Below are positions 2,174 through 46,926 of a stretch of 64,000 nt of DNA, in pieces. The notes under the pieces were generated by a model, which made no database searches, was not told the DNA's origin, and saw nothing but the letters and a program-made list of their open reading frames with translations. The position numbers and the translations under genes were made by a program. Within the stretch, counting starts at the first letter, position 1; every line of letters starts with the position of its first letter. Source of the DNA: Clostridia bacterium (GTDB taxonomy: Bacteria; Bacillota; Clostridia; Oscillospirales; CAG-272); the NCBI GenBank assembly GCA_017631085.1, contig JAGBTY010000017.1, positions 77,448 through 141,447 of the forward strand, in the 5' to 3' direction.

Positions 2174-3850
2174 TCAAACATTCATAATTACGGGGAGTAC
2201 CATAGGCTTACGTTTGGTTTTCGAATAAAGATATTTTGAAAGATCGTCCTTAACGCACGCCTTGAGTTCCATTCTGTCGATCTTGTCTCTTCGGAGCAGA
2301 CAGTCGTTTATAGCCTCTGCTGCAATAGAGCGAACGTCTTCCATAAGCTCTTCCGATTCTCTGACGTAAACGAATCCCCTGGATACTACGTCAGGGCCTG
2401 AAAGAAGAAGTCTGGATTCGGTATCTACCGTTGCGACTACAACAATAAGACCGTCTTGAGCCAGATGACGTCTGTCTCGAAGAACAATATTTCCAACGTC
2501 ACCCACGCCGTAGCCGTCAACGAGTATCTTGCCCGATGGAACAGTTCCTGCGAATCTCGCACCCTTTGAGTCTATCTCAAGCACTTTTCCAATTTCGGAA
2601 ATAAAGATATTTCGGTCTTCAATTCCCATGTCGAGCGCAAGTGCTCTGTTTGCCGCAAGATGTCTGTATTCTCCGTGAACGGGAAGAAAATACTTGGGCT
2701 TGACAAGCGCTTGCATGAGCTTAAGCTCTTCCTGACAAGCGTGTCCCGAAACGTGTACTTCAGCAACGGCGTCGTGAAGGACGTTTACTCCGTTCTTTAT
2801 AAGCTCATTTATTATTCTTCCTACAAGCTTTTCGTTTCCCGGAATAGCGCTTGAGGAGAGTACAACAAGGTCATTCCTTCCGAGTGTGACTTGAGCATGA
2901 TCGGAAAATGCCATTCTGTAAAGAGCCGACATGGGCTCTCCTTGGCTTCCTGTAGTAACCAGAGTCAGCTCTTCAGGACGGAAACGCTTTATTTCATTTA
3001 TGTCAACGAGAACGCCCTCGGGAACGGTCATATAGCCAAGCTCGATAGCGGCACTGATTATATTCTGCATACTGCGTCCCGTAATAGCGACACGTCTGCC
3101 GTGATTTAGGCTTACGTTTATTATTTGCTGAACTCTGTGAACGTTAGAGGAAAAGGTCGCTATGACTATTCTCTTGTCTTTGTTAGCGTTGAAAATATAT
3201 TCGAGCGATCTTCCCACGTTTTTTTCCGAGGGAGTATATCCGGGTCTTTCTGCGTTTGTTGACTCACACATAAGAAGGAGAGTGCCTCTTCTTCCTATTT
3301 CTCCAAGACGGGTAATGTTCATCATGTCTCCGTCTATTGGGCTTATGTCAAGCTTAAAGTCTCCCGAATGAACTACCATTCCGAGAGGAGTAGAGATAGC
3401 GAGACAGCAAGCATCTGCTATGGAGTGGTTGACATGGATAAATTCAGCTGCAAAAGAGCCGAGTCTTACCGTTTGACCTGCCTTTACGCAATTAAGCTGG
3501 GGCTCGAAAGGAAGCTGATGCTCTTCGAGCTTGTATTTTATAATACCGAGAGTCAGCTTCGTGCCGTATATAGGTGCATTTATTTGTCTTAAAAAGTATG
3601 GAATACCGCCGATATGGTCTTCATGTCCATGGGTGAGAAGTATTCCTCTTATTTTTTCCTTGTTGGCTTCGAGATAAGATATATCGGGGATCACAAGGTC
3701 AATACCCGGCATTTCCTCGTCGGGAAAGCCAAGACCGCAGTCTATTATTATTATATCGTCTCCGTATTCAAGGACGGTAAGGTTTTTTCCTATCTCGTTA
3801 AGACCGCCGAGAGGAATTATACGGAGCTTGCCTTTTTCTTTTTTGGGCAT
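2174..3850 (-). CDS. rnj: Ribonuclease J
   Basis: LGGLNEIGKN, THGHEDHIGG, HVSGHA, PVHGEYRH motifs; 558 aa. Confidence 0.97.
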   Translation of the reverse strand: MPKKEKGKLRIIPLGGLNEIGKNLTVLEYGDDIIIIDCGLGFPDEEMPGIDLVIPDISYLEANKEKIRGILLTHGHEDHIGGIPYFLRQINAPIYGTKLTLGIIKYKLEEHQLPFEPQLNCVKAGQTVRLGSFAAEFIHVNHSIADACCLAISTPLGMVVHSGDFKLDISPIDGDMMNITRLGEIGRRGTLLLMCESTNAERPGYTPSEKNVGRSLEYIFNANKDKRIVIATFSSNVHRVQQIINVSLNHGRRVAITGRSMQNIISAAIELGYMTVPEGVLVDINEIKRFRPEELTLVTTGSQGEPMSALYRMAFSDHAQVTLGRNDLVVLSSSAIPGNEKLVGRIINELIKNGVNVLHDAVAEVHVSGHACQEELKLMQALVKPKYFLPVHGEYRHLAANRALALDMGIEDRNIFISEIGKVLEIDSKGARFAGTVPSGKILVDGYGVGDVGNIVLRDRRHLAQDGLIVVVATVDTESRLLLSGPDVVSRGFVYVRESEELMEDVRSIAAEAINDCLLRRDKIDRMELKACVKDDLSKYLYSKTKRKPMVLPVIMNV

Positions 3851-32767: not shown

Positions 32768-34048
32768 ATGGCAATAAACGGAGAGAAAAGCAAGCTGAAG
32801 AATGTCCTCGGTGATTCTGTTTTAAGCATCGCGGGGCTTATTCTTATGAACGTTGTTCTTCAATTTATTGTTTATCCTTCATGGCGCTCCGAATATAATG
32901 CTGAAATATATGGGGACATACTTTATCTTATCTCGCTTATGAATATAATTGCCGTCTCAATGGGGGTTGCTTGTAATTATGCACGAATGACCGAGGTACA
33001 AACGGGGAAAAATAAAAATCTACCCTATATTGCTATACTTGGGCTTTCTTCACTTTACGGGATAATTGCTGCGATAATTTTTGGTGTGTTTGGCGGCGTC
33101 GAAATGTCTGTCCTGGAGATAATTCTTTATGCCGTATTGCTTTGTCTTACTATGTGGCGGTATTATGCAGACGTAGAGTTCAGAATGTCCTTGAATTATA
33201 AAGGATTTTTCCTTTATTATTTCTTGATAAGCATTGGATACGGTGTAGGAATATTTCTGTTTAAGCTTACGGGACTTTGGGCAATGGCGCTTATTCCCGG
33301 AGAGCTTTTTGGAATTTTGCTGGTCTTTATCTTTGGACACGTTTTTGAACTTGATACGCTGTCAGATAAAAAATATTTTAATGCTGTTTTAAGAACGGTG
33401 CTACTGCTTTTTGGCGCGGAGATATTGTCAACGATAGTATTTAACGGAGACAGAGTTGTTCTGAAGCACTTCGTTGGTTCTTCTGCCGTAACTATTTACT
33501 ATCTTGCGTCACTTCTCGGAAAGACGATAGCATTATTGACAACACCGCTTAACGGGGTAATAGTAGGGTATCTGTCGCGTTATAAAGGGCGGCTTACTCT
33601 AAAAATAATGAATATAGTTCTTGCACTGTCTTTGGGGGCGGTCATAATTGCGACCTTTGCTTGTACCGTAGGCTCTCATATAATTATTTCAAGGCTTTAC
33701 CCGGATGATTACGAAAGTGCGAAGACATATTTCATTATTGCAAATCTTGCCCAAGTCTTGTATTTTGCGGCCGGAGTTGTTACGGTGGTATTGCTTAAAT
33801 TTTCAAAATCAAGATATCAGATATATGTAAACGTAGCGTTTGCGGTAGCATTTGCGGTCATTTGTATACCAATGAGCTATTTTGGCGGACTCCTGGGATT
33901 TTGCTGGGGAATGATTTTAAGCTGCGGAGTAAGGTATATATCGGGTATTTTATTAGGATACAAGGACGCTCTAATTCAAACATCGGTTTCACAGAAGTGT
34001 GAAAAAATCGTTAGTGAAAGTAACAGAGGGGGAAAAAATGACTATTGA
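32768..34048 (+). CDS. Polysaccharide/teichoic acid flippase-like (MOP/Wzx) membrane protein
   Basis: About 12 TM helices, DRVVLKHFVGSSAVTIYY; overlaps licD. Confidence 0.7.
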   Translation: MAINGEKSKLKNVLGDSVLSIAGLILMNVVLQFIVYPSWRSEYNAEIYGDILYLISLMNIIAVSMGVACNYARMTEVQTGKNKNLPYIAILGLSSLYGIIAAIIFGVFGGVEMSVLEIILYAVLLCLTMWRYYADVEFRMSLNYKGFFLYYFLISIGYGVGIFLFKLTGLWAMALIPGELFGILLVFIFGHVFELDTLSDKKYFNAVLRTVLLLFGAEILSTIVFNGDRVVLKHFVGSSAVTIYYLASLLGKTIALLTTPLNGVIVGYLSRYKGRLTLKIMNIVLALSLGAVIIATFACTVGSHIIISRLYPDDYESAKTYFIIANLAQVLYFAAGVVTVVLLKFSKSRYQIYVNVAFAVAFAVICIPMSYFGGLLGFCWGMILSCGVRYISGILLGYKDALIQTSVSQKCEKIVSESNRGGKNDY

Positions 34049-34838
34049 AGTTTTGCACGACCAACTTTTTGAGGTAATGCTTCTTGTTGACGAGATATGT
34101 AGAAAAGAAGGAGTAAGATACTTTATTGACAGTGGTACGGCAATAGGTGCTGTAAGAGAAAAGAATTTTATCCCGTGGGACGACGACGTTGACTTTAAGG
34201 TCTTGCGTGAAGATTGGCCGCGTTTCAAGGAGGCTATGAACAAGCATTTGCCCTCAAACTACCGTCTCGTAGAGCCTATCGACATGGCACCGGCTTTTTA
34301 CGATTTCGTTCCAAGGGTAATAAACATGGACAAGCCCTTGAGAGAAGAGACCGAAGAGGATAAGTTTTATAAAAATTATCAGAACAGAGTAGGTCTTGAT
34401 ATATTTATTTTTGACAAAGCACCGAATTCTTCACTAAAGCAGAAATCGATGCTGCTCAAATGCAAAATACTTTACGGAATGGCAATGTCAAAGCGTTATA
34501 AGGTTGATATGTCAGGATATAGCTTTATGCAAAAGCTTGAGTCCAGAGTGTGTATGTTCATGGGAAAATTCTTTTCCACCGAAAAGATATTGAAAAAGCA
34601 TGAAAAAGCAATGACGAAATATTCATCGCTTACAGACAATAAGTACCGCTTCCCCGGAAACTATCTCTTGAGAGAGCTTGGATTTTTCAATGAGGAGTGG
34701 TATGAGGATACCGTTTATATGCCTATTCGCGATCACGATTTTCCTATGCCTGTGGGTTACGACGGAGAGCTTACCAAGATGTATGGAGATTATATGCATC
34801 CTCCTAAAGATAGGTCTATATATAAAACACATATATGA
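34038..34838 (+). CDS. licD: LicD-family phosphotransferase
   Basis: GTAIGAVREKNFIPWDDDVD, LDIFIFD, YGDYMHPP. Confidence 0.9.
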   Translation: MTIEVLHDQLFEVMLLVDEICRKEGVRYFIDSGTAIGAVREKNFIPWDDDVDFKVLREDWPRFKEAMNKHLPSNYRLVEPIDMAPAFYDFVPRVINMDKPLREETEEDKFYKNYQNRVGLDIFIFDKAPNSSLKQKSMLLKCKILYGMAMSKRYKVDMSGYSFMQKLESRVCMFMGKFFSTEKILKKHEKAMTKYSSLTDNKYRFPGNYLLRELGFFNEEWYEDTVYMPIRDHDFPMPVGYDGELTKMYGDYMHPPKDRSIYKTHI

Positions 34839-35032
34839 GTAAAGCGGTGAGGTCGAGGTTTATAGAATATTGACCTGCCGGTAAAAAGGACAGAGAATTT
34901 TGGGTTTTACCCGAGTTCTCTGTCTTTTTTTATGTTGGTTTTGTATTTCGAAACATAGCTATCATTCTGCTGTTTCAAAATGTTTTGATGTAGCAATATA
35001 CATTATACTCTTTAAATAAACAGTTTTTTAAA

Positions 35033-35063
35033 GTCATACCTTAAAGCGAGCTTTACATATAGT
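35033..35063 (+). promoter_or_regulatory. sigmaE-like (mother-cell) promoter of the ATPase gene
   Basis: GTCATAC at 35033 and CATATAGT at 35056, spacing matching the sigmaE consensus TCATATT-N15-CATACGAT. Confidence 0.55.
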
Positions 35064-35123
35064 AATGTATAAGTATTATGCACACAAAGGCAAACAAATA
35101 AAACGGAAAAGGGGAAATCCTAA

Positions 35124-36032
35124 ATGATAGAACGAACAGAAGATATACGGAAGGGACTTGGCGGCGAGGAGGTGGCATTATCTGCGCAAAAAAACGGTGT
35201 CAACCGTTTAAGTGTTGGTAAGAAAAAAAGCTTTTTGAGACATTTTCTTACAAATCTTGGTGACCCCGTTATAAAAATATTACTTTGTGCTCTTGTTGTA
35301 AATCTAATATTTGTATTCAAGGGTGGGGATATATTTGAAACGGTCGGCATAGGAATATCGATCTTTTTGGCGGTGACCATATCCACTGTTTCCGAAAGGG
35401 GAAGCGAAGCTGCCTTTAAACGATTATCCGAGGAGTGTGCGCGGGCAGAGTACAGAGTAAGACGCGACGGAAAAATAACTCTTATACCCATAGAAGATAT
35501 AGTTGTAGGAGACGTAGTAGTGTTAAGCGCGGGAGAACAAATACCTGCTGACGGTTACGTGATATGGGGCCATCTTGGAGTAGATCAATCTTCTATGACA
35601 GGAGAGAGCCGCGAGGTTGAAAAGCAACCTAATAAGGATAAAATAAAAAGCCCCGAGTCGAAGACATCGGTGCTAAAGGGAAGTCTCGTGTTATCGGGTG
35701 AGGGAGAGATCGTTGTTTTTGCTGTTGGTGATAACACTTTTCTTGGAGAAATATCAAAGGAAGTTCAGATTGCAACACGAGAAAGTCCTTTAAAGGTAAG
35801 ACTTACGAAGTTGGCAAAGCAGATAAGTCGACTTGGTTACATCGCGGCGATCCTTGTGGCTGTCGCTTTTTTTGTCAGTAGCCTTGTAGGAGACAGCGGT
35901 TGGAATAGAGAGCTGATCCTAACAAAGCTTGCTGACAAAGGCTACATGTGGCAAAATCTGCTCCATGCTTTTATGCTTGGTCTTACTGTTATCGTGGTTG
36001 CTGTTCCTGATGGAATGTCTTACTATAACTGA
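35124..36032 (+). pseudogene. 5' half of a Ca2+-type P-type ATPase, interrupted at the M4 PEG motif
   Basis: Cation_ATPase_N, IVVGDVV..GEQIPADG, DQSSMTGES, then VVAVPDGMSYYN* instead of VAVPEGLP; no DKTGT domain anywhere in the window. Confidence 0.88.
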
Positions 36033-36081
36033 TAATAGTCCAAATTTAATGTTTTCTCTAAAAAGCAGATGGTTGATTTGT

Positions 36082-37458
36082 TTAATTAAATGTTATAGAT
36101 ATTTCTCCGTTTTCGGAAAGGTAGATCTTATTTAGCGTTCTTGACCAGAATGCTTTTTTGGCTATGGGGGTAAGGTCACGGTATGAAATATGAAAGTCGT
36201 TGAATTGTTCCAGATCTATCGGATCGCGCATAGGCTCTTTTTTCTCGTTTTCCGCATCTTTTAATGACGCCATTAGTGCGGTATATTCCTTTTCATACAT
36301 TTCCTTGGGTAGAAGATCGTTAATATACAGATCCTTTAGCTTTTCTATTTTTGCATAAATTTTTGAAGTATCTATGTGTTTTGGCGGAGATAAGGCTTTT
36401 CTGCTTTGAAATGACAGGTTTATCTTTTCTATCTCGGAAAGAAGATTGTCAGATAACCACTCCTCAAGCTTGTCCTGGTTGAATTGCTTTGACATATCGC
36501 AAAGATGCATCGTATGGGCAGGACAACGGTAATAGACAAATGTCTGCTTGACCGTTCCGTCTTTGTTTTTATTATGGCAAGTATAGGTCGTCATTCGTCT
36601 GTCGCAAGAAGAACAGAAAACAAGTCCCGTGAAAAGATAAACTCTGTCAGAGCGACTTCCATCGTGTCTTGCAGAACGGACATTTATTATAGCGGAAACA
36701 ATATCAAAGGTGTTTTTGTCGATTATGACAGGACACCAATTTTCAATTCCGTAGGCTTCTCCGATATACCATTTGTTTTGAAGTATGTGTTTCATTGATT
36801 TTGTGTCGATGCTTTTTCCGTATTTGTTGAGTATATATCGCGAGGTGGCTTTCATTGAACGCAGGTCTATATATTTCTGAAACAGATCTCTGACGATATT
36901 AGCCTCATCTTCGTTTACCACTGCTTTTTTATCTCTGATCTCGTATCCGAGCGGTGTTTTGCCGGAAATGACCCTTCCTTCTTTGACCATATTGGAAAAG
37001 ACGAATTTTATACGCTCTGACGTTCTGTCGGATTCATCTTGCGCAATGGCAAGCTTTATGTTGAGCGCTAATCTGCCGTTGGCGGTAGTGGTGTCGTAAT
37101 CTTCCTCGGTCGCTATCCATTGGACGTTGTTTTTATCAAGTATGCTTTGCACTTCATAATAATCGGCAATATTACGAAACCATCTGTCCAGCTTGATAAA
37201 AAGCACAACGTCTATCTTTTGAGCCTTGATGTCATCGAGCATTCTAATAAATTCAGGACGCTTTGTATAACGCTTTCTCGCTGAAATTCCTTCGTCGATA
37301 TAAAGATCTACTATTACCAGATCGTTTTCTTTTGCGTATTGAATAAGACGCTCCCTTTGTGCATCAAGGGACAGACCTCTTTGAGCCTGTTCTTCTGTTG
37401 AAACTCTGGTATACAGTGCTGCGCGTTTCAGGGTACTGTTGATTCTGTTTGTTTTCAT
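36082..37458 (-). CDS. Large serine recombinase (integrase)
   Basis: ALYTRVSTEEQ catalytic Ser, KLDRWFRN, PLGY, Zn ribbon CSSC..CPAHTMHLC, coiled coil; intact 458 aa. Confidence 0.95.
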   Translation of the reverse strand: MKTNRINSTLKRAALYTRVSTEEQAQRGLSLDAQRERLIQYAKENDLVIVDLYIDEGISARKRYTKRPEFIRMLDDIKAQKIDVVLFIKLDRWFRNIADYYEVQSILDKNNVQWIATEEDYDTTTANGRLALNIKLAIAQDESDRTSERIKFVFSNMVKEGRVISGKTPLGYEIRDKKAVVNEDEANIVRDLFQKYIDLRSMKATSRYILNKYGKSIDTKSMKHILQNKWYIGEAYGIENWCPVIIDKNTFDIVSAIINVRSARHDGSRSDRVYLFTGLVFCSSCDRRMTTYTCHNKNKDGTVKQTFVYYRCPAHTMHLCDMSKQFNQDKLEEWLSDNLLSEIEKINLSFQSRKALSPPKHIDTSKIYAKIEKLKDLYINDLLPKEMYEKEYTALMASLKDAENEKKEPMRDPIDLEQFNDFHISYRDLTPIAKKAFWSRTLNKIYLSENGEISITFN

Positions 37459-37478
37459 GTATCCCCTTATTATAATAA

Positions 37479-38057
37479 TTATCTTTTGAAAGTTTTTTCT
37501 TTAGTTATGTATTCTTCAAAATTTTTATACAGTTGTTTTTCTGTGGGGTCGGTCAAAAATTTTCCTCGCTTATATAGCTCTTTCATTCTCCGAGCTCTGG
37601 TGATGGAAATATCACTTTCAACTCGGCAGTATCTTGCTATCTCATCTGCAGAGTGTAGATCCAGCCCCCAAAGTACGCAGGCGGGGCAGAGAAGGCGCAG
37701 GGCGAACATGTCGGCTTGTTGTTCGGATTTCGGTTTCGTGGATACTTCCTTTGCTTGAGGGAAATGACCAAGACAGAGGTCATGACCGAGGAAAATGTGT
37801 CCAAGCTCATGGGCGACGGTGAAACGTGAAAGCTCTGTAGGGTTATTGTCGTTGTAAACAATTATCCAATTAGTACCGTCAAAAAATGATTTGCCGTTTT
37901 CATTTGGCTGCAAGACGTTGACCGACGTATCTCTGATAACGCGTACACCTGCGGTACGTGCGATCTTCAGAACGTCAACAGGAAGACGGTCAATATTAAA
38001 ATCGATCAAGCACTGCCATGCGCTATGTCGAATATTTTTATACAGTCCGTAGTACAT
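37479..38057 (-). CDS. ImmA/IrrE-family metalloendopeptidase (anti-repressor)
   Basis: RFTVAHELGHIFLGH, EQQADMFALRLLCP. Confidence 0.92.
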   Translation of the reverse strand: MYYGLYKNIRHSAWQCLIDFNIDRLPVDVLKIARTAGVRVIRDTSVNVLQPNENGKSFFDGTNWIIVYNDNNPTELSRFTVAHELGHIFLGHDLCLGHFPQAKEVSTKPKSEQQADMFALRLLCPACVLWGLDLHSADEIARYCRVESDISITRARRMKELYKRGKFLTDPTEKQLYKNFEEYITKEKTFKR

Positions 38058-38059
38058 TT

Positions 38060-38590
38060 TTATAACAAGGGATCATCAGTATCCTTGGCGGATTTGATCT
38101 TTTCCCATTCTTCCTTTTTTATAGTGATTATCTGATCAGGGCGGTTATCTTTCGAAGAAGCTGCAGAATATATCTGCACATAACCGTCGCTTTCCACACC
38201 AAGTAAATGGTCAACTGCGCTTTGGAATTCGGGGTGGAGTCGGTAAGCGGTGATCACATTCAATTCGTGCTGCGAAAGAGTGAGTGGGCTGGGTGTTATC
38301 TTCGAATTTATGCTTTCTTTTTGTAAAACTTTATTGTCGCTGTCCAAAAGTCGGGTATCAAGGTCGGAGGATCTTGTATCCGGATTTTTTTCTTCGCCTA
38401 AAAGATGACCGACCGAAACGTCAAAATATGAAGCGATCTTTTGTGCTGTTACGGCAGATACGCCCGAACGCCTCCCCATCTTCAGATCTGTCAGAAGTCC
38501 TTTGCTGATTCCAAGGTCGGTGCACATTTTTCCCCCTTTGACCCCTTTCTTCTCGCACAATGAGATAATATTCTCGTACAAAGTGCTCAA
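38060..38590 (-). CDS. XRE-family (ImmR/CI-like) repressor
   Basis: HTH (MCTDLGISKGLLTDLK..QKIASYFDVSVGHLLG); TTG start at 38590 with AGGAGG 8 nt upstream. Confidence 0.88.
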   Translation of the reverse strand: MSTLYENIISLCEKKGVKGGKMCTDLGISKGLLTDLKMGRRSGVSAVTAQKIASYFDVSVGHLLGEEKNPDTRSSDLDTRLLDSDNKVLQKESINSKITPSPLTLSQHELNVITAYRLHPEFQSAVDHLLGVESDGYVQIYSAASSKDNRPDQIITIKKEEWEKIKSAKDTDDPLL

Positions 38591-38626
38591 TTGAACGCCC
38601 TCCTTTTTGGTTGTTGTTTCCAAAAA

Positions 38627-38765
38627 TACTCAAAAAAGTATTTTTTGACTTGACAAATTCTCGAACAAGTACTAAAATATACCCGATAGGTACTCGAACG
38701 AGTAATATATATTCCTTTTGATAATCCGTTAATATAATTATAGTACTTAAATAGGAGATTGTCAA
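38627..38765. promoter_or_regulatory. Face-to-face promoter switch with three operators
   Basis: Rightward TTGACA(38650)-17-TAAAAT(38673); leftward TTGACA(38765-38760)-17-TATAAT(38742-38737); 14-bp sites at 38627, 38658, 38691 related to TACTCGNNCGAGTA. Confidence 0.8.
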
Positions 38766-38902
38766 GATTAAAATAAATAAGGAAGAAAATTTTTAAAAGG
38801 TGAGAAGCAAATATGAAAAATAGTCGAAATATAAAAAATACTTCTTTAATAGCTTGTTCGTTCATATGATAGAATAGTGCTGATTGTTCTTAGGAGGGGA
38901 AA

Positions 38903-39109
38903 ATGAAAATAAAATTCGTCAATCAACCCGATCCGGTGCGTATAATGAAGATACTTGCTGATCTTATGACAGATGAAAGCGGGGGAGAATACATATATGA
39001 GGTATGCAAAGACGGAAAACCGATAATCGAAGAAGAGAGCAACCAAAAAGAAGCCGATATTAAAAACGAGAATGACGTAGAAAAGGAAAAAGATACCGAA
39101 ATGGTTTAA
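38903..39109 (+). CDS. Small acidic hypothetical protein of the element
   Basis: 68 aa, strong RBS GGAGGGG, first substantial ORF downstream of the rightward promoter. Confidence 0.65.
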   Translation: MKIKFVNQPDPVRIMKILADLMTDESGGEYIYEVCKDGKPIIEEESNQKEADIKNENDVEKEKDTEMV

Positions 39110-39136
39110 AAATGCAGGAGGCATCTTTTCGATCAA

Positions 39137-40117
39137 CTATGCCAAATTGTTTTTGCAGGAACCTTTCGTTGAAAATTCGATAATATTTTCCACGGTAGTT
39201 TCGGCAATGTTATTGAGAGCTTCCTCGGTGAGAAAGGCTTGATGAGATGTGACGATAACGTTTGGCATGGAAATGAGCCTTGCAAGAGTGTCATCGTCCA
39301 TGATATGCCCGGAGTTGTCTCTGAAGAAAACGTCCGATTCTTCCTCGTAAACGTCAAGACACGCGGCACCTACCCGGCGGTCTTTTATGCTTTCGATAAG
39401 GGCATTGGTATCGATCAACGCTCCCCGAGAGGTGTTCACGATAATGACTCCTTTTTTCATCATATCAAGAGTTTTTTCGTTGATAATATGATATGTTTCC
39501 TCGGTCAAGGGGCAGTGGAGAGATATAATGTCGCTGTCTTGGAAAATAGTGTCGGTATCTGTATAGGTAACATCAAGAGATTTGTTGGGAAATTTGTCAT
39601 AGGCTAAAATATTCATACCAAAGCCGCGGCAAAGGTCGATAAAGGCTCTGCCTATTCTTCCTGTGCCAATAACGCCCACGGTTTTTCCGTGAAGGTCAAA
39701 TCCGGCAAGTCCTGTGAGGCTGAAGTTAAAATCCTTGCTTCTGATATATGCCTTGTGTATACGTCGTACGGAGCAAAGGAGCAGAGCCATGGCATGTTCG
39801 GCAACGGCGTAGGGGGAATAAGCGGGAACGTGAAGGACAGCTATCTGCCTCTCACGTGCGCGGTCAAGGTCTACGTTGTTAAATCCCGCGCATCGAAGAG
39901 CGATGATCTTCACGTCAAGCTCGGAAAGTTTATCTATGACAGCGGCATTTACAGTATCGTTAACGAAAACGCAAACCGCTTCAGCGCCTTTGGCGAGAGC
40001 ACAGGTGTCGAGCGATAGCTTTGTTTCGAAATATTTGATCGAAATATTCGCTGTGTCTTTTATTTTGTCAAATGAGGCGATATCGTATGGCTTTGTGTCA
40101 AAAAAAGCTATTTTCAT
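39137..40117 (-). CDS. ldhA: D-lactate dehydrogenase-like 2-hydroxyacid dehydrogenase
   Basis: MKIAFFDTKPYD, LRCAGFNNVD, GTGRIG, NTSRGALID, TSHQAFLT. Confidence 0.88.
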   Translation of the reverse strand: MKIAFFDTKPYDIASFDKIKDTANISIKYFETKLSLDTCALAKGAEAVCVFVNDTVNAAVIDKLSELDVKIIALRCAGFNNVDLDRARERQIAVLHVPAYSPYAVAEHAMALLLCSVRRIHKAYIRSKDFNFSLTGLAGFDLHGKTVGVIGTGRIGRAFIDLCRGFGMNILAYDKFPNKSLDVTYTDTDTIFQDSDIISLHCPLTEETYHIINEKTLDMMKKGVIIVNTSRGALIDTNALIESIKDRRVGAACLDVYEEESDVFFRDNSGHIMDDDTLARLISMPNVIVTSHQAFLTEEALNNIAETTVENIIEFSTKGSCKNNLA

Positions 40118-40492
40118 AAAAACTCCAAAAATTATAATTCTAAAGTATTTTTAATCCGAGAGCGATGTAAGAGAATATGCTCTCGGATGTAATTATTTTA
40201 TCATGTCGCGCGTGATTTTTCAAGTGTATTTGACTTTAAATGGAAAAATTTACGTTTAATCGCAAAACAAATCAGTCCATACCTATTTTTTGCAAAAAGT
40301 TGTAGTTTATTCATAGCCGTTTAAGCTTGAATAGTATTTGATTTTAAGGGACGGCAATTTTTGAAAAAATGTTAAAAAGTCCATGTTTTCTTAAAAAATA
40401 TTCACTTTTGTACATTTACAAAAGAGTTTTAATATGATAAAATTATATTGACAAGGTCCGTAAAGGGCAAAAATAAAATGTGAGGTACGAAA

Positions 40493-42301
40493 ATGAGAAA
40501 GAATAATCTTGTAGGTGAATATCCCGTTATCGGTATCCGTCCTTGTATCGACGGCAGACGCGGAATACTTGGCGTCCGCGAATCTCTTGAAGATCAGACT
40601 ATGAATATGGCGAAGAGCGCTGCAAAGCTCTTCCGTGAAAATCTCCGCTATTCCGACGGAACGCCAGTTAAGGTAGTTATTGCTGACACCACTATCGGAC
40701 GAGTTGGAGAGACAGCAGCTTGCGCTGAAAAGTTCAGACGTGAGGGTGTTTCCATTACCCTTTCGGTAACTCCTTGTTGGTGCTACGGCTCGGAAACTAT
40801 GGACATGGACACACAGACTATAAAGGGTGTTTGGGGATTTAACGGAACAGAGCGTCCCGGTGCGGTATACCTTGCAGCTGTTCTTGCGGCTCATGCACAA
40901 AAGGGACTTCCTGCATTTGGAATCTACGGTAAGGACGTTCAGGATATGGACGACACTTCTATTCCCGATGACGTAAAGGAAAAGCTCCTCCGCTTTGGTA
41001 GAGCAGCGATCGCTGCAGCAACCATGAGAGGCAAATCCTATCTCCAGATAGGCTCTCTCTGTATGGGCATTGCGGGCTCTCAAATAAATACCGACTTTAT
41101 AGAGGACTATCTTGGAATGAGAGTTGAATCGGTTGACGAGGTCGAGGTAATTCGCCGTATGACCGAGGGCATCTACGACAAAGACGAGTATGAAAGAGCA
41201 ATTGCTTGGGCAAAAGAAAACTGCATTATAGGCTTTGACAAGAATCCTGACTTTATCCGCAGAAGCGACGAGCAGAAGGATAAGGACCTTGAGTTCTGTG
41301 TTCTTACCGCAATGATAATTCAGGACCTTATGAACGGAAACGAAAAGCTTCCCAAGGGTTGTGAGGAAGAGAGAGTCGGACATAATGCAATTGCAGCGGG
41401 CTTCCAGGGCCAGAGACAGTGGACAGACTTTTATCCTAACTGTGATTTCGGTGAGGCGATACTCAATTCTTCCTTCGACTGGAACGGAACGAGAGAGCCC
41501 TACATACTTGCAACAGAAAACGATACGCTCAACGGTATCGGTATGCTTTTTATGAAGCTGCTTACCAACCGTCCTCAGATATTTGCAGACGTACGTACCT
41601 ATTGGTCGGCTGACGCTGTAAGACGCGCTACGGGCGGATATGAAATAGAAGGCAGAGCAAAGGAGGCAGGCGGATTTATTCACCTTATCAATTCGGGTGC
41701 AGCTTGTCTTGATGCAAACTGCCGCGCGACAGACGAGAACGGAAACGGTATCATGAAGGAATGGTACGACGTGACCGAAGAGGACAAGAAGGCTATCATG
41801 GCAAACGTTGAGTGGTGTCCCGCTGACAACGGATATTTCAGAGGCGGCGGATTCTCATCGAGATTCGTTACGAAGGCAGAAATTCCTTGTACTATGATCC
41901 GTCTCAATATGGTAAAGGGACTTGGTCCTGTACTTCAGATAGCCGAGGGTTATACCATTGATCTTCCTGATGAAGTCACCGATGTTCTTTGGAAGAGAAC
42001 AGACTATACATGGCCTTGTACTTGGTTCGCACCTATATGCGACGGACGCGAGGGCTCGCCTTTCGAGAACGCATACGAGGTCATGAACCATTGGGGAGCA
42101 AATCACGGAGCTATCAGCTACGGACATATCGGAGCTGACCTTATCACTCTCTGTTCCATGCTCCGCATACCCGTTTGTATGCACAACGTGCCCGAAAAGG
42201 ACATCTTCCGCCCTGCAGTATGGAATGCATTCGGCTCGGACAAGGAAGGACAGGATTACAGAGCTTGTGCGGCATACGGCCCTCTCTTTAAGAAGAACTG
42301 A
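40493..42301 (+). CDS. fucI: L-fucose isomerase
   Basis: [41 protein letters not shown]. Confidence 0.96.
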
Positions 42302-43700: not shown

Positions 43701-44984
43701 ATGAATATTGAACAGACAAAAAAGGCTTTACGTGAGGGTGCTATTGACGAGAAAATTGCTTATATTTACGGCAAAGAGGCAGTAGAGGCTCAAAAAGCAA
43801 GATATGAAGCGGCTATCAACGAGTTTGCCGCAATATACGGTGCTGACAGAGAAATTTCTCTTTTCTCGGTTGCAGGAAGAAGTGAGCTTTCGGGCAACCA
43901 CACAGACCATAACCACGGATGTGTTATAGCGGCATCTATCGACCTTGATATAATTGCTGTCGCATCAGAGAGAGAGGACAGCGTTATTCGCGTTAAGAGC
44001 GCGGGATTCCCCGAGGACGTTGTCGATATATCTGAATATACTGCTCCTGTAGAGAAAAAATTCGGCTCGTCGGAATCTATAATTGCGGGAATGTGCGCAG
44101 GATTTCGTAAGGACGGATATTCGGTAGGAGGATTTGATGCATATACTACCTCAAGCGTTCTTAAGGGGTCGGGACTTTCTTCTTCCGCGGCTTTTGAGGA
44201 TATGATAGGAAATATCCTCAGCCATTTCTACAACGATGGCGGTGTAGATAACGTAGAGATAGCAAAGCTTGCGCAGTATTCCGAGAACGTATTCTTCGGT
44301 AAGCCCTGCGGACTTATGGATCAGGTCGCTTGTGCTGTTGGCGGTATTGTAGCTATTGATTTTAAAGATCCCAAGACTCCTGTTATCGAAAAGATGGGGG
44401 TTGACATTTCCGGACATGGATTTAATCTTTGTATTGTAAATACGGGTGGAAACCATGCAGACCTTACAGACGACTATGCATCTGTACCTGCTGAAATGAA
44501 GTCGGTTGCAAAACTTCTCGGCTGTGAGGTGCTTCGTGATGCCGATGAGGATAAGCTTATGTCTTCTGCCGCTTCAATTCGTGAGCAGGTGGGCGACAGA
44601 GCGCTTCTTCGTGCATTCCACTTCTTTAATGAAAACCGCAGAGTTGCAAAGCAAAAGGCAGCTCTTATGGCAGAGGACCTTGATGCCTTTTTCGAGCAGG
44701 TAAAGGCTTCGGGACGCTCTTCATTCTGCTATTTGCAGAACGTATATACGACCAAGAACGTAAACGAACAGGGACTTTCTTTAGCTCTCTGCGTTGCTGA
44801 AAATTACCTTTCGGACAAGAGAGGTGCTTTCAGAGTTCACGGAGGCGGATTTGCGGGAACGATACAGGCATTTGTGGCTTCAAATGAAGTAGAAGGCTTC
44901 CGTCAGAGAATGGATAGCATATTCGGAGACGGAAAGTGCATAGTGCTCAGAATCCGTCCCGTTGGAGCAGTAAAAGTATTTTAA
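43701..44984 (+). CDS. galK: Galactokinase
   Basis: GRSELSGNHTDHN, GSGLSSSAA, GKPCGLMDQ, RVHGGGFAG. Confidence 0.9.
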   Translation: MNIEQTKKALREGAIDEKIAYIYGKEAVEAQKARYEAAINEFAAIYGADREISLFSVAGRSELSGNHTDHNHGCVIAASIDLDIIAVASEREDSVIRVKSAGFPEDVVDISEYTAPVEKKFGSSESIIAGMCAGFRKDGYSVGGFDAYTTSSVLKGSGLSSSAAFEDMIGNILSHFYNDGGVDNVEIAKLAQYSENVFFGKPCGLMDQVACAVGGIVAIDFKDPKTPVIEKMGVDISGHGFNLCIVNTGGNHADLTDDYASVPAEMKSVAKLLGCEVLRDADEDKLMSSAASIREQVGDRALLRAFHFFNENRRVAKQKAALMAEDLDAFFEQVKASGRSSFCYLQNVYTTKNVNEQGLSLALCVAENYLSDKRGAFRVHGGGFAGTIQAFVASNEVEGFRQRMDSIFGDGKCIVLRIRPVGAVKVF

Positions 44985-45002
44985 TTTAAAAAGAGAGTGC
45001 AA

Positions 45003-45788
45003 ATGGGAAAAAATTACAGGCTTGTTGCTCTCTATTCGGGTTCACGAGGCAATGCGACCTACTTTTCGGCAAAGGGTACGTCGATACTCATAGATGCTGG
45101 GAAAAGCGCATCAGCTCTTTCCTCTGCACTTAAAAGCATCGGCTCGTCTATTGACGAGATAAGCGCTGTGTTTGTTACCCACGAGCATTGTGACCATACT
45201 TCAGCTCTTGATGTTATTTCAAAAAAATCACCGAGACCGATACATATAATGGAAGGGTCGGCGCAGCTTTTTGACAGACGTCCCGATTCATTCGTGCATA
45301 ACGCTATGATACGTCACGGTGAGCTTTTTTCGGAAAGGATCGGAGAGCTTACGATAAAAGCTTTCAGGACCTCTCACGACAGTCGAATGAGTGTAGGTTA
45401 CAGAATAGAATTTGAGGACGGCGGGGAGAATGTAGCGGTGGGAGTTGCCACCGATATGGGATACGTGTCCGACGAGGTCATAGAAGGGCTTTCGGGTTGC
45501 GAAGCGGTGGTGATTGAGGCAAATCACGACGTGGAGATGCTAAAGGAGGGAAGATATCCCTACGAGCTAAAAAAGAGGATACTCTCGAGGAAAGGACATC
45601 TTTCAAACACCGATAGCGCATCTCTTGCTCTGACACTTGCTGACAGAGGAACAAAGGGATTTATACTTGCGCATTTGAGCGAGGAAAATAATCGTCCTGA
45701 AATAGCATACGACGAGATAAGCTCTGTACTTGCGGATGTGGACGTCAGACTTGCAGTAGCAACACCAGATGCCCCTGTGGAGCTTTAA
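45003..45788 (+). CDS. MBL-fold metallo-hydrolase (YycJ/WalJ-like)
   Basis: SGSRGNA, THEHCDH, EANHD, GHLSN, LAHLSEENN; precedes rlmH. Confidence 0.88.
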   Translation: MGKNYRLVALYSGSRGNATYFSAKGTSILIDAGKSASALSSALKSIGSSIDEISAVFVTHEHCDHTSALDVISKKSPRPIHIMEGSAQLFDRRPDSFVHNAMIRHGELFSERIGELTIKAFRTSHDSRMSVGYRIEFEDGGENVAVGVATDMGYVSDEVIEGLSGCEAVVIEANHDVEMLKEGRYPYELKKRILSRKGHLSNTDSASLALTLADRGTKGFILAHLSEENNRPEIAYDEISSVLADVDVRLAVATPDAPVEL

Positions 45789-46276: not shown

Positions 46277-46356
46277 CAAAAAAGCAAGGCGTGAAATACC
46301 GCCTTGTTTTTTTTATAGTCATATCTACCGTTTTCGAAAATTTTATTCCTTTAACC

Positions 46357-46926
46357 GCGCGGGACGCCGAGGACGTCGTCCCCTACAATTAAATAAGGAA
46401 AAACCCGAAAAAGAGGTTAACCATATGTTCACGTCGAGAGGTATGTATAAAATTTATTCTATCTCGGTGTGCGGACAGTCGAGACGCCTGTCCCTACAAT
46501 CAAATATAGGTGTTCCTCAAAAATATTGGTTAACCCCTCGTTTACGGCGAACGATATGTGAAAATTATATCTATTCACCGTAGGGGACGACGTCCTCGGC
46601 GTCCCGCAAAAACAATGGTTCTCGCGAAACACATATAATATTTTTTATGCGTTGACAAATAGCTCCAAGCATGATATAATAAATATGCCAAACAAACTTA
46701 ATATACAGTCAAGGTCGGAATCCAATCCTTCAAAATGATGAAGCTTGCCTTTCTTCCCTTCGGCGCTTCTGTAAATAACCCTCGGAAATAAATACATTAA
46801 TTAAAAAAGACCACCTGCACGATGCAGATGGTCTTTTTTTCAGGATTTTACCCTTTCATCGCGCGGGACGCCGAGGACGTCGTGAGACGGGACGCCGAGG
46901 ACGTCGTCCCCTACAATTAAATAAGG
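46357..46926. repeat. Cluster of GTAG-type REP-like palindromes
   Basis: GTAGGGGACGACGTCCTCGGCGTCCCG at 46580 (+); reverse copies at 46357-46386 and 46888-46914; truncated copy 46861-46883; variant 46471-46497. Confidence 0.88.
46687..46840 (+). ncRNA. Candidate small RNA (about 150 nt)
   Basis: TTGACA(46652)-17-TATAAT(46675) and terminator AAAAAAGACCACCTGC..GCAGATGGTCTTTTTT; no RBS-led ORF between them. Confidence 0.55.

What the first reader, a model, noticed from the sequence alone, without database searches (positions are those of the whole stretch)
35033..39109. Sporulation-type P-type ATPase gene split at its PEG motif by an intact serine-recombinase element: candidate skin-like gene-reassembly system
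Seen: the ATPase ORF is clean up to GTT GCT GTT CCT GA (about 36010), where VAVPEGLP is expected, then stops within 7 codons. About 70 bp later lies the 3' end of an intact large serine recombinase, followed by immA and an XRE repressor. The ATPase has a sigmaE-like promoter (35033-35063). Known: large serine recombinases rebuild split mother-cell genes during sporulation (skin in sigK, SPbeta in spsM). Inference: the junction near 36010 is attL, and a Ca2+ pump gene is rebuilt by excision or inversion in the mother cell. The lack of frameshifts in the 5' half and in the recombinase fits retained function or a recent insertion.
Basis: partly seen in the sequence, partly recalled or inferred. 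Interest (0 to 1): 0.85.

Follow-up and report, generated by a model that had tools for sequence, protein, structure and literature searches.

The report
Phage remnant splits sporulation calcium-pump gene
A calcium-pump gene that looks switched on during spore formation is cut in two by the leftover of a virus, and here the two halves face opposite ways on either side of the replication origin, so only flipping a 109,000-base stretch could rebuild the gene.

Summary
A PMCA-type Ca2+ P-type ATPase ORF (window 35124-36032) ends 7 codons after VAVP. An intact 458-aa large serine recombinase (LSR), an ImmA protease and an XRE repressor follow.

The missing 3' half exists, with no frameshift or internal stop. 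It lies on the same contig, 108,952 bp away, on the opposite strand. The joints have the same layout as in related prophages: CAGTTATA-N10-CC(T/C)GA-N13-TATAACTG, with the crossover at GA of the Glu codon. So only inversion, not excision, could rebuild the gene. The segment holds dnaA-dnaN-recF-gyrB near its middle.

The element is a 3.5-kb remnant: recombinase, ImmA, XRE, a 68-aa ORF, and DUF6514 at the other joint. Related elements sit in the same codon:
- 5 of 61 genomes of the genus, including a 34-kb prophage and a 3.3-kb mini-element, both in direct orientation.
- A 45.7-kb provirus record.
- 66 of 120 near-length database hits, which are 5' halves cut at this codon.

Orthologues carry a conserved mother-cell-type promoter (13 of 19).

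Rebuilding during sporulation is untested: no directionality factor and no sporulation promoter were found in the element. I read this as a new variant of a known kind, with reassembly at about 0.4.

The parts
35034..35063 (+). Mother-cell (sigmaE/sigmaK)-type promoter-like site TCATACC-N15-CATATAGT upstream of the ATPase gene
   Evidence: Read directly. The same two-part motif occurs in 13 of 19 distinct orthologue upstream regions, and CATATA in 17 of 19. Background in the G000 genome is 0.007 per 163 nt. Two other split alleles, G430 and G460, also keep it. The paper PMC3789822 (passages) says sigmaE and sigmaK share the -10 box and gives CATATAAT as an example.
35124..36032 (+). 5' half of a PMCA-type Ca2+ P-type ATPase (302 aa), ending in 7 residues plus a stop encoded by the phage arm
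   Evidence: It scores 167.3 bits on TIGR01517. It is 73-74% identical to residues 10-302 of the intact 889-aa homologue P0001.
35986..36031 (+). attL: gene arm, core CCTGA (36006-36010; inferred crossover GA at 36009-36010), 13 nt, then TATAACTG (36024-36031)
   Evidence: The same N13-TATAACTG arm is seen in the provirus record G425, with a close variant in G021. The partner site on contig C20 (core at C20:4505-4509, CAGTTATA-N10 before it) was read.
36082..37458 (-). Large serine recombinase, 458 aa, intact
   Evidence: Pfam Resolvase, Recombinase and Zn_ribbon_recom. PHROG 95 integrase, 5.7e-109. It has every invariant residue of a 20-sequence alignment. It is single copy in the genome.
37479..38057 (-). 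ImmA-type metalloprotease (Peptidase_M78, HEXXH present)
   Evidence: It is 53-60% identical to the protein at the same position in related elements.
38060..38623 (-). XRE/ImmR-type repressor
   Evidence: Pfam HTH_26. PHROG 8 transcriptional regulator.
38650..38704 (+). Rightward sigma-70-like promoter TTGACA-N17-TAAAAT overlapped by two CTCGAAC(A/G)AGTA repeats; putative operator of the repressor
   Evidence: Read directly. No function was tested.
38903..39109 (+). 68-aa acidic ORF, first gene behind the rightward promoter; phage-derived; one candidate directionality factor
   Evidence: Weak homologues lie to the right of XRE in the elements of G430, G437 and G432. It has no Pfam or PHROG match.
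39110..39136 (.). Right boundary of the element on this side. Host 2-hydroxyacid dehydrogenase (39137-40117, -) follows directly.
   Evidence: One 8871-bp Logan contig in each of runs X1 and X2 spans 33500-41000 with 0 differences.

Best explanation
SHOWN (about 0.9)
The gene is a PMCA-type Ca2+ P-type ATPase. In this genus it carries a conserved mother-cell-type promoter. It is cut at the GA of the Glu codon of VAVPEGLP by the remnant of a temperate phage. That phage's large serine recombinase (LSR) family uses exactly this site as attB.

What remains of the phage:
- At the 5' half: recombinase, ImmA, XRE and a 68-aa ORF (window 36011-39136).
- At the 3' half: DUF6514 (contig C20:4593-4889).

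The two joints are a matched attL and attR, but in inverted orientation. They lie 108,952 bp apart, on either side of dnaA-dnaN-recF-gyrB.

INFERRED (about 0.4)
The system still works like skin or SPbeta, with excision replaced by inversion.
1. The recombinase is made together with XRE and ImmA.
2. When a directionality factor is supplied, attL x attR recombination flips the 109-kb origin-containing segment. Candidate factors are the 68-aa ORF behind the XRE-controlled promoter, or DUF6514.
3. This joins the halves in frame behind the mother-cell promoter and forms attP between DUF6514 and the recombinase gene.
4. In a terminal mother cell the flip costs nothing, and the germ line keeps the split state.

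The inverted layout itself arose in one of two ways. Either an ordinary mini-element insertion was followed by an origin-spanning inversion, with one breakpoint inside the element. Or an attP-bearing remnant recombined with attB on the other replichore.
For: The 3' half:
- It was found at C20:2740-4512 (-) as an open frame of 586-592 aa with no stop inside the gene part.
- TIGR01517 bits of the two halves are 167.3 + 366.8, against a cut-off of 507.

Joint layout:
- The pattern CAGTTATA-N10-core-N13-TATAACTG is shared with the provirus record G425, which holds a 43-kb prophage in direct orientation in the same codon.
- Variants are seen in G021 and G437.

Census:
- The ATPase is present in 61 of 61 genus genomes.
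- It is split at residues about 285-302, next to this recombinase family, in 5 of 61.
- G021 has a 3.3-kb mini-element with the same gene set (recombinase, ImmA, XRE, DUF6514) in direct orientation.
- 66 of 120 near-length database hits end within 13 aa after xVP.

Sporulation context:
- Promoter conservation is 13 of 19.
- Spo0A, SpoIIGA and SpoVAC/EB are present.
- A sigE-like gene lies next to spoIIGA, and there is a sigK-like gene.
- YloB, a Ca2+ ATPase, is mother-cell expressed and needed for heat-resistant spores in Solibacillus (PMC12999246, passages).

Constraint: among four split alleles of the G000 clade, only 2-4 of 23-59 differences fall in columns conserved in intact orthologues, against 35% expected.

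Origin: dnaA-dnaN-recF-gyrB lie at C20:65048-71493, and the midpoint of the segment is 58,981.

No second Ca-ATPase was found in G000. There was one PF00689 match, and only the two halves matched.
Against: - No rearranged (attB or attP) form was seen. Only Logan contigs could be laid, and these drop rare variants.
- No directionality factor was identified.
- The mother-cell two-part motif is absent from the element and from the DUF6514 region. Control looks phage-type (ImmA/XRE), not sporulation-type.
- SpoIVA was not found, though the genome is 88% complete.
- The sigE and sigK matches lie under the curated cut-offs: 336.2 vs 348.6 and 261.4 vs 298.65.
- Unmatched, split 5' halves break conserved columns more often than intact ones, mean 5.57 vs 0.88. 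The gap nearly closes only after matching by distance: 2.42 vs 1.94 in the best-populated bin, and 1.00 vs 0.54 and 0.85 in the two closer bins.
- The constraint among the four clade alleles says nothing about the split state if each lineage was infected separately. The recombinase is more alike (96%) than the 5' half (92%), which fits that reading.
- Only the attL side of the assembly was checked against independent contigs.
- I found no case in print of inversion rebuilding a sporulation gene.
Confidence: 0.4

Rival explanations
1. Dead end. A prophage integrated and decayed, and an origin-spanning inversion then separated attL from attR. The pump gene is permanently off and is never rebuilt. 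The parts are intact only because the events are recent.
For: - No directionality factor or sporulation promoter was found in the element.
- The inverted att layout has no described precedent in the sporulation papers I read.
- The strain was seen in one study only.
- Recombinase identity (96%) above host-gene identity (92%) fits recent spread of the element.
Against: - 888 codons in the two halves, plus five element ORFs, carry no frameshift or stop.
- The gene is kept in 61 of 61 genus genomes, and no second copy was found in G000.
- G021 kept the same four-gene set in its own 3.3-kb mini-element.
- Differences among the four related split alleles avoid conserved columns.
Confidence: 0.35
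2. The flip happens, but as a phage-type or stochastic switch in growing cells rather than as a mother-cell programme. ImmA cleaves XRE after DNA damage or another signal, and the small ORF is then expressed. The result would be a reversible on/off state of the pump gene in the germ line.
For: The recombinase-ImmA-XRE order, with a divergent repressed promoter, is the classic induction module. No mother-cell promoter was found in the element. An origin-centred inversion is tolerable in growing cells.
Against: The target gene has a mother-cell-type promoter, so it would be silent in growing cells either way. Integrase alone would drive attB x attP straight back, so the 'on' state would not last (general LSR behaviour; abstract of PMC3783163 in the listing). 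Both runs assembled only the split form.
Confidence: 0.1
3. Assembly artefact. The contig is chimeric, and in the real genome the halves flank an ordinary insertion in direct orientation.
For: The genome is a metagenome-assembled draft of 57 contigs, 88% complete. The attR side (3' half, DUF6514, ileS) could not be checked against independent contigs, because read laying is capped at one call.
Against: - No repeat is shared by the two element/host boundaries, and contig C20 has no long repeat near them.
- One 8871-bp contig in each of two runs joins XRE, the 68-aa ORF and the dehydrogenase with 0 differences. They may be the source samples.
- No other part of a related phage is in the draft.
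- The breakpoints sit at roughly similar distances on either side of dnaA, a layout I recall as common for real inversions.
Confidence: 0.05
4. The two halves are made as separate polypeptides that assemble into a working pump without any DNA rearrangement.
For: Both halves are open. A GAGG lies 9-10 nt before the ATG ATG of the 3' half.
Against: The cut lies inside the PEGL motif, which by general knowledge of P-type ATPases (recalled) sits in the ion-binding M4 helix. The GAGG is simply the Glu-Gly codons present in every orthologue. No promoter facing the 3' half was seen; the nearby promoter-like site faces DUF6514.
Confidence: 0.02

Closest known systems
skin element with SpoIVCA in sigK (Bacillus subtilis, Clostridioides difficile)
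   Same: A decayed prophage with a large serine recombinase interrupts a mother-cell gene. Both gene halves are intact and can be rejoined in frame. The host is a spore former (PMC5025042 abstract; the rest recalled).
   Different: The target is a Ca2+ pump, not a sigma factor. attL and attR are inverted and 109 kb apart around oriC, so the product would be an inversion, not an excised circle. The recombinase sits in an ImmA/XRE operon. No sporulation promoter or directionality factor was found.
SPbeta prophage with SprA/SprB in spsM (B. subtilis)
   Same: A phage LSR integrates into a symmetric site inside a sporulation gene, and a small directionality factor decides the direction (PMC4191935 and PMC5499854, abstracts and passages). 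The full-size relatives here, G430 at 34 kb and G425 at 43 kb, look like this case.
   Different: G000 keeps only about 3.5 kb of the phage. The att core is 5 bp with GA, against 16 bp in SPbeta. The orientation is inverted.
gin element with GirC/GirX in gerE (Bacillus cereus ATCC 10987)
   Same: A small element without phage structural genes carries a serine recombinase plus a small accessory factor and rebuilds a sporulation gene (PMC5595907, abstract and passages). The 3.3-kb element of G021 and the G000 remnant are of similar size and content.
   Different: gin is excised. It has three recombinase genes and no ImmA/XRE pair. Here the descent from a phage is visible.
XisF and the fdxN element of Anabaena
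   Same: This is the best NCBIfam model for the recombinase (137 bits). An LSR rebuilds a gene in a terminally differentiated cell (the biology is recalled).
   Different: The score is far under the 375-bit cut-off, so this is not an XisF orthologue. XisF belongs to cyanobacterial heterocysts and works by excision.
Engineered serine-integrase inversion switches (Bxb1, phiC31 memory devices)
   Same: attL and attR, or attB and attP, placed head to head give inversion, and the direction is set by the directionality factor (PMC11891168 abstract).
   Different: Those switches are man-made and span short cassettes. Here the layout is natural and spans 109 kb including dnaA.
ICEBs1-type ImmR/ImmA control module
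   Same: The order int-immA-immR with a divergent repressed promoter whose first gene is small (recalled). Pfam M78 and HTH domains are present.
   Different: ICEBs1 uses a tyrosine integrase. Cleavage of XRE by ImmA was not tested here.

Membership tests
Large serine recombinase (phage integrase type) | N-terminal resolvase catalytic domain with the serine nucleophile | tested here: met
   PF00239 at 2.9e-31 over residues 13-162. S20 is invariant in the 20-sequence alignment.
Large serine recombinase (phage integrase type) | C-terminal recombinase domain plus zinc ribbon | tested here: met
   PF07508 at 6.1e-08 and PF13408 at 2.9e-09. PHROG 95 integrase at 5.7e-109.
Large serine recombinase (phage integrase type) | Short att sites with imperfect inverted repeats around a 2-bp crossover; attL and attR are hybrids of attB and attP | tested here: met
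   CAGTTATA-N10-CCTGA-N13-TATAACTG can be assembled from the two phage arms, with its centre at GA. The same layout is seen in G425, G021 and G437.
Large serine recombinase (phage integrase type) | attL x attR needs a directionality factor | not testable with these tools
   The job for recombinase with DUF6514 gave no verdict.
Sporulation gene-intervening element (skin / SPbeta / gin kind) | The element interrupts the coding frame of a gene, and both halves can be rejoined in frame | tested here: met
   Joining at the shared CCTGA gives VAVPEGLPMM, as in the intact homologues.
Sporulation gene-intervening element (skin / SPbeta / gin kind) | The target gene is expressed in the mother cell | tested here: inconclusive
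   There is a conserved TCATnnn-N14-CATATAnT motif in 13 of 19 upstream regions. A YloB precedent exists in another genus. No expression data exist, and orthology to YloB was not tested.
Sporulation gene-intervening element (skin / SPbeta / gin kind) | attL and attR in direct orientation, so that excision rejoins the gene | tested here: not met
   The halves lie on opposite strands of contig C20. This feature is met in the relatives G430, G021 and G425.
Sporulation gene-intervening element (skin / SPbeta / gin kind) | The rearrangement occurs during sporulation | not testable with these tools
   Only assembled contigs of two runs were available. No RNA run was listed.
Sporulation gene-intervening element (skin / SPbeta / gin kind) | The host forms endospores | tested here: inconclusive
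   Spo0A_C, Peptidase_U4 (SpoIIGA) and SpoVAC/EB were found. SpoIVA was not found in an 88%-complete genome. The sigE- and sigK-like genes score just under the cut-offs.
PMCA-type Ca2+ P-type ATPase (TIGR01517) | Whole-protein score over the curated cut-off | tested here: met
   The intact homologue P0001 scores 553 against 507. The two G000 halves score 167.3 + 366.8 as a simple sum.
PMCA-type Ca2+ P-type ATPase (TIGR01517) | TGES, DKTGT and GDGxND motifs (names recalled) | tested here: met
   SMTGES is in the 5' half. FTDKTGTLT and MTGDGINDAP are in the 3' half.
Small serine DNA invertase (Hin/Gin) phase switch | A recombinase of about 190 aa acting on two like sites in inverted repeat | tested here: not met
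   The recombinase is 458 aa with a zinc ribbon. The two sites are unlike hybrids, attL and attR.

The most novel reading that the evidence does not exclude
In this gut Clostridia species, the sporulating mother cell rebuilds its only PMCA-type calcium pump gene by flipping a 109-kb chromosome segment that contains oriC. The flip is catalysed by a domesticated phage serine integrase. This would be the first natural developmental gene assembly by integrase-driven inversion rather than excision. It would also belong to a widespread, undescribed family of phages and mini-elements that all use the PEGL codon of this pump gene as their attachment site.
Probability: 0.3. Interest if true: 0.85.

Novelty: new variant of a known kind. 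Interest (0 to 1): 0.65.

Why it matters
- It adds a Ca2+ pump to the short list of spore genes known to be interrupted by mobile elements (sigK, spsM, spoVFB, spoVR, gerE, yabG). The Ca2+ pump belongs to a class of protein shown in 2026 to be needed for heat-resistant spores. My six literature searches found no paper linking a Ca2+ ATPase with such an element.
- The site is used often: in 5 of 61 genomes of the genus, and in 66 of 120 near-length database hits. It could therefore shape spore quality and transmission in gut Clostridia.
- The G000 layout is a natural test of whether a gene-rebuilding system survives when excision is turned into a large origin-spanning inversion.
- The family offers a graded set of integrase and att pairs with a common GA crossover.
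- It provides a compact four-gene module in which to look for the directionality factor. DUF6514, a family of unknown function present in 181 of 401 genomes of the order, is a candidate.

Tried and rejected
- Synteny in relatives, to find the ancestral arrangement. The 3' flank genes are shared in 4 of 8 relatives. Nothing on the 5' side or around ileS is shared. This could not decide.
- GC skew and strand bias along C20 were too noisy to say which orientation is ancestral.
- The search for related loci with the single recombinase gave only distant hits: 2 viral loci and 1 genome locus. The alignment-based scans worked.
- Order-wide search for the recombinase: 4 of 401 genomes at E<=1e-80. This draw did not sample genus g1 apart from G000, so it missed the genus cases found later.
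- Complex prediction of recombinase with DUF6514: no verdict, score 0.02 against a mark of 0.32. This is neither for nor against binding.
- DUF6514 structure model: pLDDT 74.5, three strands and two helices. Foldseek against the PDB gave 0 matches at E<=0.001, best 0.36.
- PHROGs and NCBIfam gave nothing for DUF6514. Pfam and PHROGs gave nothing for the 68-aa ORF.
- The mother-cell promoter motif was not found inside the element or near DUF6514.
- The look-up of sequencing runs listed no RNA holder.
- Read laying: no loose end at 36010 among the 17 rows shown, with 50 more not shown. Contigs drop rare variants, so this says nothing about a rejoined form.
- Run X3 has identical short pieces at 34404-35303 and 38879-40376, and none over 35508-38770. 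A hole proves nothing.
- A search for the rest of the phage in the draft found only ImmA, XRE and DUF6514, plus two weak hits on contig C40.
- The unmatched comparison of conserved-column violations (split 5.57 vs intact 0.88) is confounded by distance. I replaced it with the matched one.
- dnaA in five relatives lies on other contigs than the ATPase, so distance to the origin could not be compared.
- Rows dropped before counts. In some searches, five duplicate loci (L015, L016, L017, L021, L173) were dropped, and L175 for lack of upstream sequence. In one search, hits outside 270-330 aa, or running on through EGLPM/EGLPP, were not counted as split.
- Supplementary tables of the papers were closed. 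Table S7 of PMC3789822 (promoter lists) and the supplements of PMC4191935 (lists of interrupted genes) may bear on the promoter reading and on novelty.

Full report
1. THE OBSERVATION

The window holds an ORF at 35124-36032 (+) of 302 aa that ends ...VIVVAVPDGMSYYN*. Pfam finds Cation_ATPase_N and E1-E2_ATPase in it. Downstream, on the other strand, lie three genes:
- a 458-aa protein with Resolvase, Recombinase and Zn_ribbon_recom domains (36082-37458);
- a Peptidase_M78/ImmA protein (37479-38057);
- an HTH/XRE protein (38060-38623).

The recombinase gene ends 72 bp from the point where the ATPase reading leaves VAVPEGLP.

2. THE MISSING HALF

A Pfam search of the whole draft genome (57 contigs, 1.59 Mb, 88% complete) found one Cation_ATPase_C match. 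It lies on the same contig as the window, at C20:2773-3294, on the minus strand, in an open frame of 592 aa. The frame reads (PEGL)PMMIAVVLS... and then carries DKTGTLT and GDGINDAP.

The intact 889-aa homologue P0001 aligns as follows:
- residues 10-302 to the window ORF;
- residues 285-889 to the second piece. The only stop lies upstream of the joint.

On the PMCA-type model TIGR01517, P0001 scores 553 bits against a cut-off of 507. The two halves score 167.3 and 366.8.

The window is C20:77448-141447. The 5' half therefore lies on the plus strand at C20:112571-113479, and the 3' half on the minus strand at C20:2740-4512. The two crossover points are 108,952 bp apart and the halves face opposite ways. 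No excision can join them. Only inversion of the stretch between them can.

3. THE JOINTS

- At the 5' half the gene runs into CCTGA, then 13 nt, then TATAACTG.
- At the 3' half CAGTTATA, then 10 nt, then CCTGA, run into GGG ATT GCC TAT G....

The two foreign arms together form an imperfect palindrome whose centre falls on the GA of CCTGA. That is the usual build of a serine-integrase attP. Joining the two gene arms at the shared CCTGA gives VAVPEGLPMM, the sequence of every intact orthologue.

The same build recurs elsewhere:
- In a provirus record of 45,662 bp (G425, which CheckV rates 100% complete), the 5' half (52-930, +) and 3' half (43830-45656, +) flank about 43 kb of phage in direct orientation. 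The arms are N13-TATAACTG and CAGTTATA-N10, with core CCCGA.
- Variants of the arms, always with GA at the centre, are seen in G021, G437 and G460.

The junction at 36010 is therefore a true attL, and its attR partner is at C20:4505-4509.

4. HOW COMMON THE SITE IS

Recombinase relatives abound in metagenomes. Homologues of 52-96% identity fill the first 120 rows.

Of the 138 loci I screened (L033-L170), five viral loci have the ATPase 5' half directly behind the recombinase gene, as in the window. These are L116-L120, two sequence types, with 65% identical recombinases.

In 61 genomes of the genus, G000 included:
- The ATPase is present in all 61.
- A recombinase homologue at E<=1e-60 is present in 6.
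- The ATPase is split at residues about 285-302 in 5: G000, G430, G437, G460 and G021.

The individual cases differ:
- G430 carries a prophage of about 34.4 kb in direct orientation on one contig.
- G021 carries a 3.3-kb mini-element in direct orientation on one contig. Its only genes are recombinase, ImmA, XRE and DUF6514.
- G437 has the prophage the other way round, with the recombinase gene next to the 3' half.
- In G437 and G460 the halves lie on separate contigs.

A search for proteins of near the length of the 5' half gave a further count. Of the 120 listed, 66 end within 13 residues after xVP. Of these, 46 have the 7-residue tail, and 24 of those end in YN, which is what TATAACTGA encodes. 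The PEGL codon of this pump gene is thus a much-used attachment site.

5. SPORULATION CONTEXT

I took the 160 nt upstream of the gene in 19 distinct orthologues, after dropping five loci fetched twice and one without upstream sequence.
- A two-part motif ([GTA]CATNNN, 12-16 nt, CATA[TC]ANN) is present in 13, with a spacer of exactly 14 in 12 of them.
- CATATA is present in 17.
- The motif occurs 141 times on both strands of the whole genome, or 0.007 per 163 nt.
- Two further split alleles keep it (G430, G460). G437 does not.

According to PMC3789822 (passages read), sigmaE and sigmaK promoters of C. difficile share their -10 box. CATATAAT is given as an example. They differ at -35, with ATA for sigmaE and AC for sigmaK. 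That TCAT fits the Bacillus sigmaE -35 box is my recollection, not a tool result.

Sporulation genes in the genome:
- Spo0A_C, SpoIIGA and two SpoVAC/EB genes are present.
- A sigE-like gene lies right next to spoIIGA (336.2 bits, cut-off 348.6), and there is a sigK-like gene (261.4 bits, cut-off 298.65).
- SpoIVA was not found.

A 2026 paper (PMC12999246, passages) reports that the Ca2+ ATPase YloB of Solibacillus is made in the mother cell at engulfment, sits around the forespore and is needed for heat-resistant spores. I did not test whether the gene here is the YloB orthologue.

6. WHAT IS LEFT OF THE ELEMENT IN G000

On the attL side:
- recombinase, ImmA and XRE in one direction;
- a sigma-70-like promoter TTGACA-N17-TAAAAT facing the other way, overlapped by two CTCGAAC(A/G)AGTA repeats;
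- a 68-aa acidic ORF (38903-39109);
- 27 bp later, the stop of a host 2-hydroxyacid dehydrogenase.

On the attR side, 80 bp from the core, starts DUF6514 (C20:4593-4889). After it come a sigma-70-like promoter and ileS, which is single copy.

The 68-aa ORF has weak homologues to the right of XRE in the elements of G430, G437 and G432, so it is phage-derived.

DUF6514 lies close to the att site or to the recombinase/XRE genes in all nine elements where that end could be seen: G000, G425, G430, G437, G460, G021, G432, L036 and G022. It is also widespread, in 181 of 401 genomes of the order and 31 of 61 of the genus. It has no PHROG match.

No other part of a related phage is in the draft. The recombinase has every residue that is invariant in a 20-sequence alignment.

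7. IS THE SPLIT GENE STILL UNDER SELECTION?

I aligned the part up to VAVP from 120 intact homologues and 67 split alleles. I then counted departures at the 102 columns that are at least 95% conserved among the intact ones.
- Taken raw, split alleles depart more often: mean 5.57 against 0.88. This comparison is confounded, because the split set reaches further out in the tree.
- Matched by identity to the nearest intact sequence, the difference nearly vanishes. In the 0.68-0.75 bin it is 2.42 (n=31) against 1.94 (n=18). In the two closer bins it is 1.00 (n=5 and n=2) against 0.54 (n=54) and 0.85 (n=46).
- G000 itself has two departures, both conservative.

Three database proteins form a clade with G000: P0241, P0242 and P0243 (92, 87 and 80% identical).
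- All four share the same two departures.
- P0241 and P0243 end in a similar phage-arm tail. P0242 ends at VAVPEG. All four count as split by the rule.
- Among the four, only 2-4 of 23-59 pairwise differences fall in the conserved columns, where 35% are expected. The binomial p ranges from 0.005 to 8e-9.
This suggests, but does not prove, the same contigs.

If the split is older than this clade, the 5' half has been kept by selection while split, which would argue for reassembly. If each lineage was infected on its own, the pattern only reflects the time before insertion. The recombinase is more alike than the host gene, which leaves that reading open.

8. THE INVERSION SPANS THE ORIGIN

The genes dnaA, dnaN, recF and gyrB lie at C20:65048-71493. 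This is inside the 4,506-113,456 segment, whose midpoint is 58,981. The arms are about 60.5 and 48.4 kb.

I recall inversions around the origin as the commonest tolerated large rearrangements in bacteria. This fits a real event rather than an assembly error.

The element/host boundaries fall between convergent or tandem genes and break none of them.

Two histories fit:
(a) An ordinary insertion of a mini-element like that of G021, followed by an inversion with one breakpoint between the 68-aa ORF and DUF6514 and the other between the dehydrogenase and ileS.
(b) A remnant carrying attP, sitting between ileS and the dehydrogenase, recombined with attB on the other replichore. The integrase does this without any helper.

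Gene order in relatives is too scrambled to choose between them.

9. ASSEMBLY CHECK

Two runs of one study hold the stretch. Each has one 8871-bp Logan contig covering window 33500-41000 with no difference, so attL and the join to the dehydrogenase are real. These runs may be the source of the draft and are not independent. There is no repeat at or shared by the boundaries.

10. MECHANISM AND ODDS

Shown: the anatomy, the family, the target site, the promoter conservation and the inverted geometry. Not shown: any rearrangement.

| Reading | Odds |
|---|---|
| Reassembly by recombinase-driven inversion in the mother cell | about 0.4 |
| Dead gene | 0.35 |
| Phage-type or stochastic switching in growing cells | 0.1 |
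| Contig error | 0.05 |
| Two-polypeptide pump | 0.02 |

In favour of reassembly:
- every part is intact;
- the gene is kept in 61 of 61 genomes of the genus;
- no second Ca2+ ATPase was found in G000;
- the same four-gene set survives in the mini-element of G021;
- differences among related split alleles avoid conserved columns.

Against reassembly:
- no directionality factor was identified;
- the control module is phage-type;
- no mother-cell promoter was found in the element;
- I found no described precedent for inversion.

11. COMPARISON WITH WHAT IS KNOWN, AND NOVELTY

The kind is known. Prophages and their remnants interrupt mother-cell genes and are removed by serine recombinases: skin in sigK, SPbeta in spsM, gin in gerE, yin in yabG (abstracts listed; passages of PMC4191935 and PMC5595907).

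In those two papers the words ATPase and inversion do not occur. In the listings, none of the listed papers held the Ca-ATPase terms together with the prophage terms. Supplementary tables were closed, so a mention there cannot be excluded.

What is new:
- the target gene;
- the size of the family;
- the recurrent four-gene mini-element with DUF6514;
- in G000, the head-to-head attL/attR pair around oriC.

I file it as a new variant of a known kind.

12. CAVEATS

- The genome is a draft from a metagenome.
- Kin are not independent, and G430 and the viral loci L119-L121 share the same upstream sequence.
- The sigma-factor assignment rests on motifs.

Noticed in passing
L223 = G021:C35:1-3993: This is a complete 3.3-kb mini-element in the same PEGL codon, in direct orientation. 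It runs 5' half (to 517), recombinase (601-1950, -), ImmA, XRE, DUF6514 (3353-3643, +), attR at about 3808, then the 3' half. It has no phage structural genes. It resembles gin of B. cereus in size.
   Followed up: partly
L227 = G437:C37:44000-60000 and L229 = G437:C16:24200-26100: Here attP is flipped relative to the recombinase-DUF6514 axis, so the prophage sits the other way round. The recombinase gene runs straight into the 3' half. DUF6514 starts about 110 nt after the truncated 5' half on the same strand, where read-through from the ATPase promoter could reach it.
   Followed up: partly
L017 = G022:C23, 5372-6828: A DUF6514 gene lies divergent from an XRE-ImmA pair (ImmA 57% identical to the window's), with no recombinase. 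It sits 2.5 kb downstream of an intact ATPase gene. It may be another remnant.
   Followed up: no
L224 = G432:C163 6278-9312, and L036 790-3869: In these two related elements XRE, ImmA, recombinase and DUF6514 run in one direction. The spacer after the recombinase gene is shared, and no CAGTTATA-type site lies between recombinase and DUF6514. Their att site was not found.
   Followed up: no
G000:C20:65048-71493 (outside the window): The dnaA-dnaN-recF-gyrB cluster lies here, with the lowest G+C of the contig (0.358) in the 4-kb bin at 64001. It marks the likely origin of replication, about 6 kb from the midpoint of the segment between the two ATPase halves.
   Followed up: yes
window 46348-46926: In the gap between two genes there are several copies, direct and inverted, of a G+C-rich palindromic unit of about 28-39 nt. 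It looks like a REP-like or terminator-like repeat.
   Followed up: no
G000:C20:38996-41699 (outside the window): Two adjacent 1.3-kb stretches are 77% identical, which points to a tandem gene duplication.
   Followed up: no
window 35508-38770, run X3: A third run of the same study has identical short contigs on both sides (34404-35303 and 38879-40376) but none over the end of the 5' half and the recombinase-ImmA-XRE genes. It may hold a strain without the element, or it may simply be low depth.
   Followed up: no
G000:C20:4593-4889 and the order at large: DUF6514 occurs in 181 of 401 genomes of the order, mostly once per genome. It has no PHROG match and no fold match in the PDB. The model shows three strands and two helices. 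Its function is unknown.
   Followed up: partly
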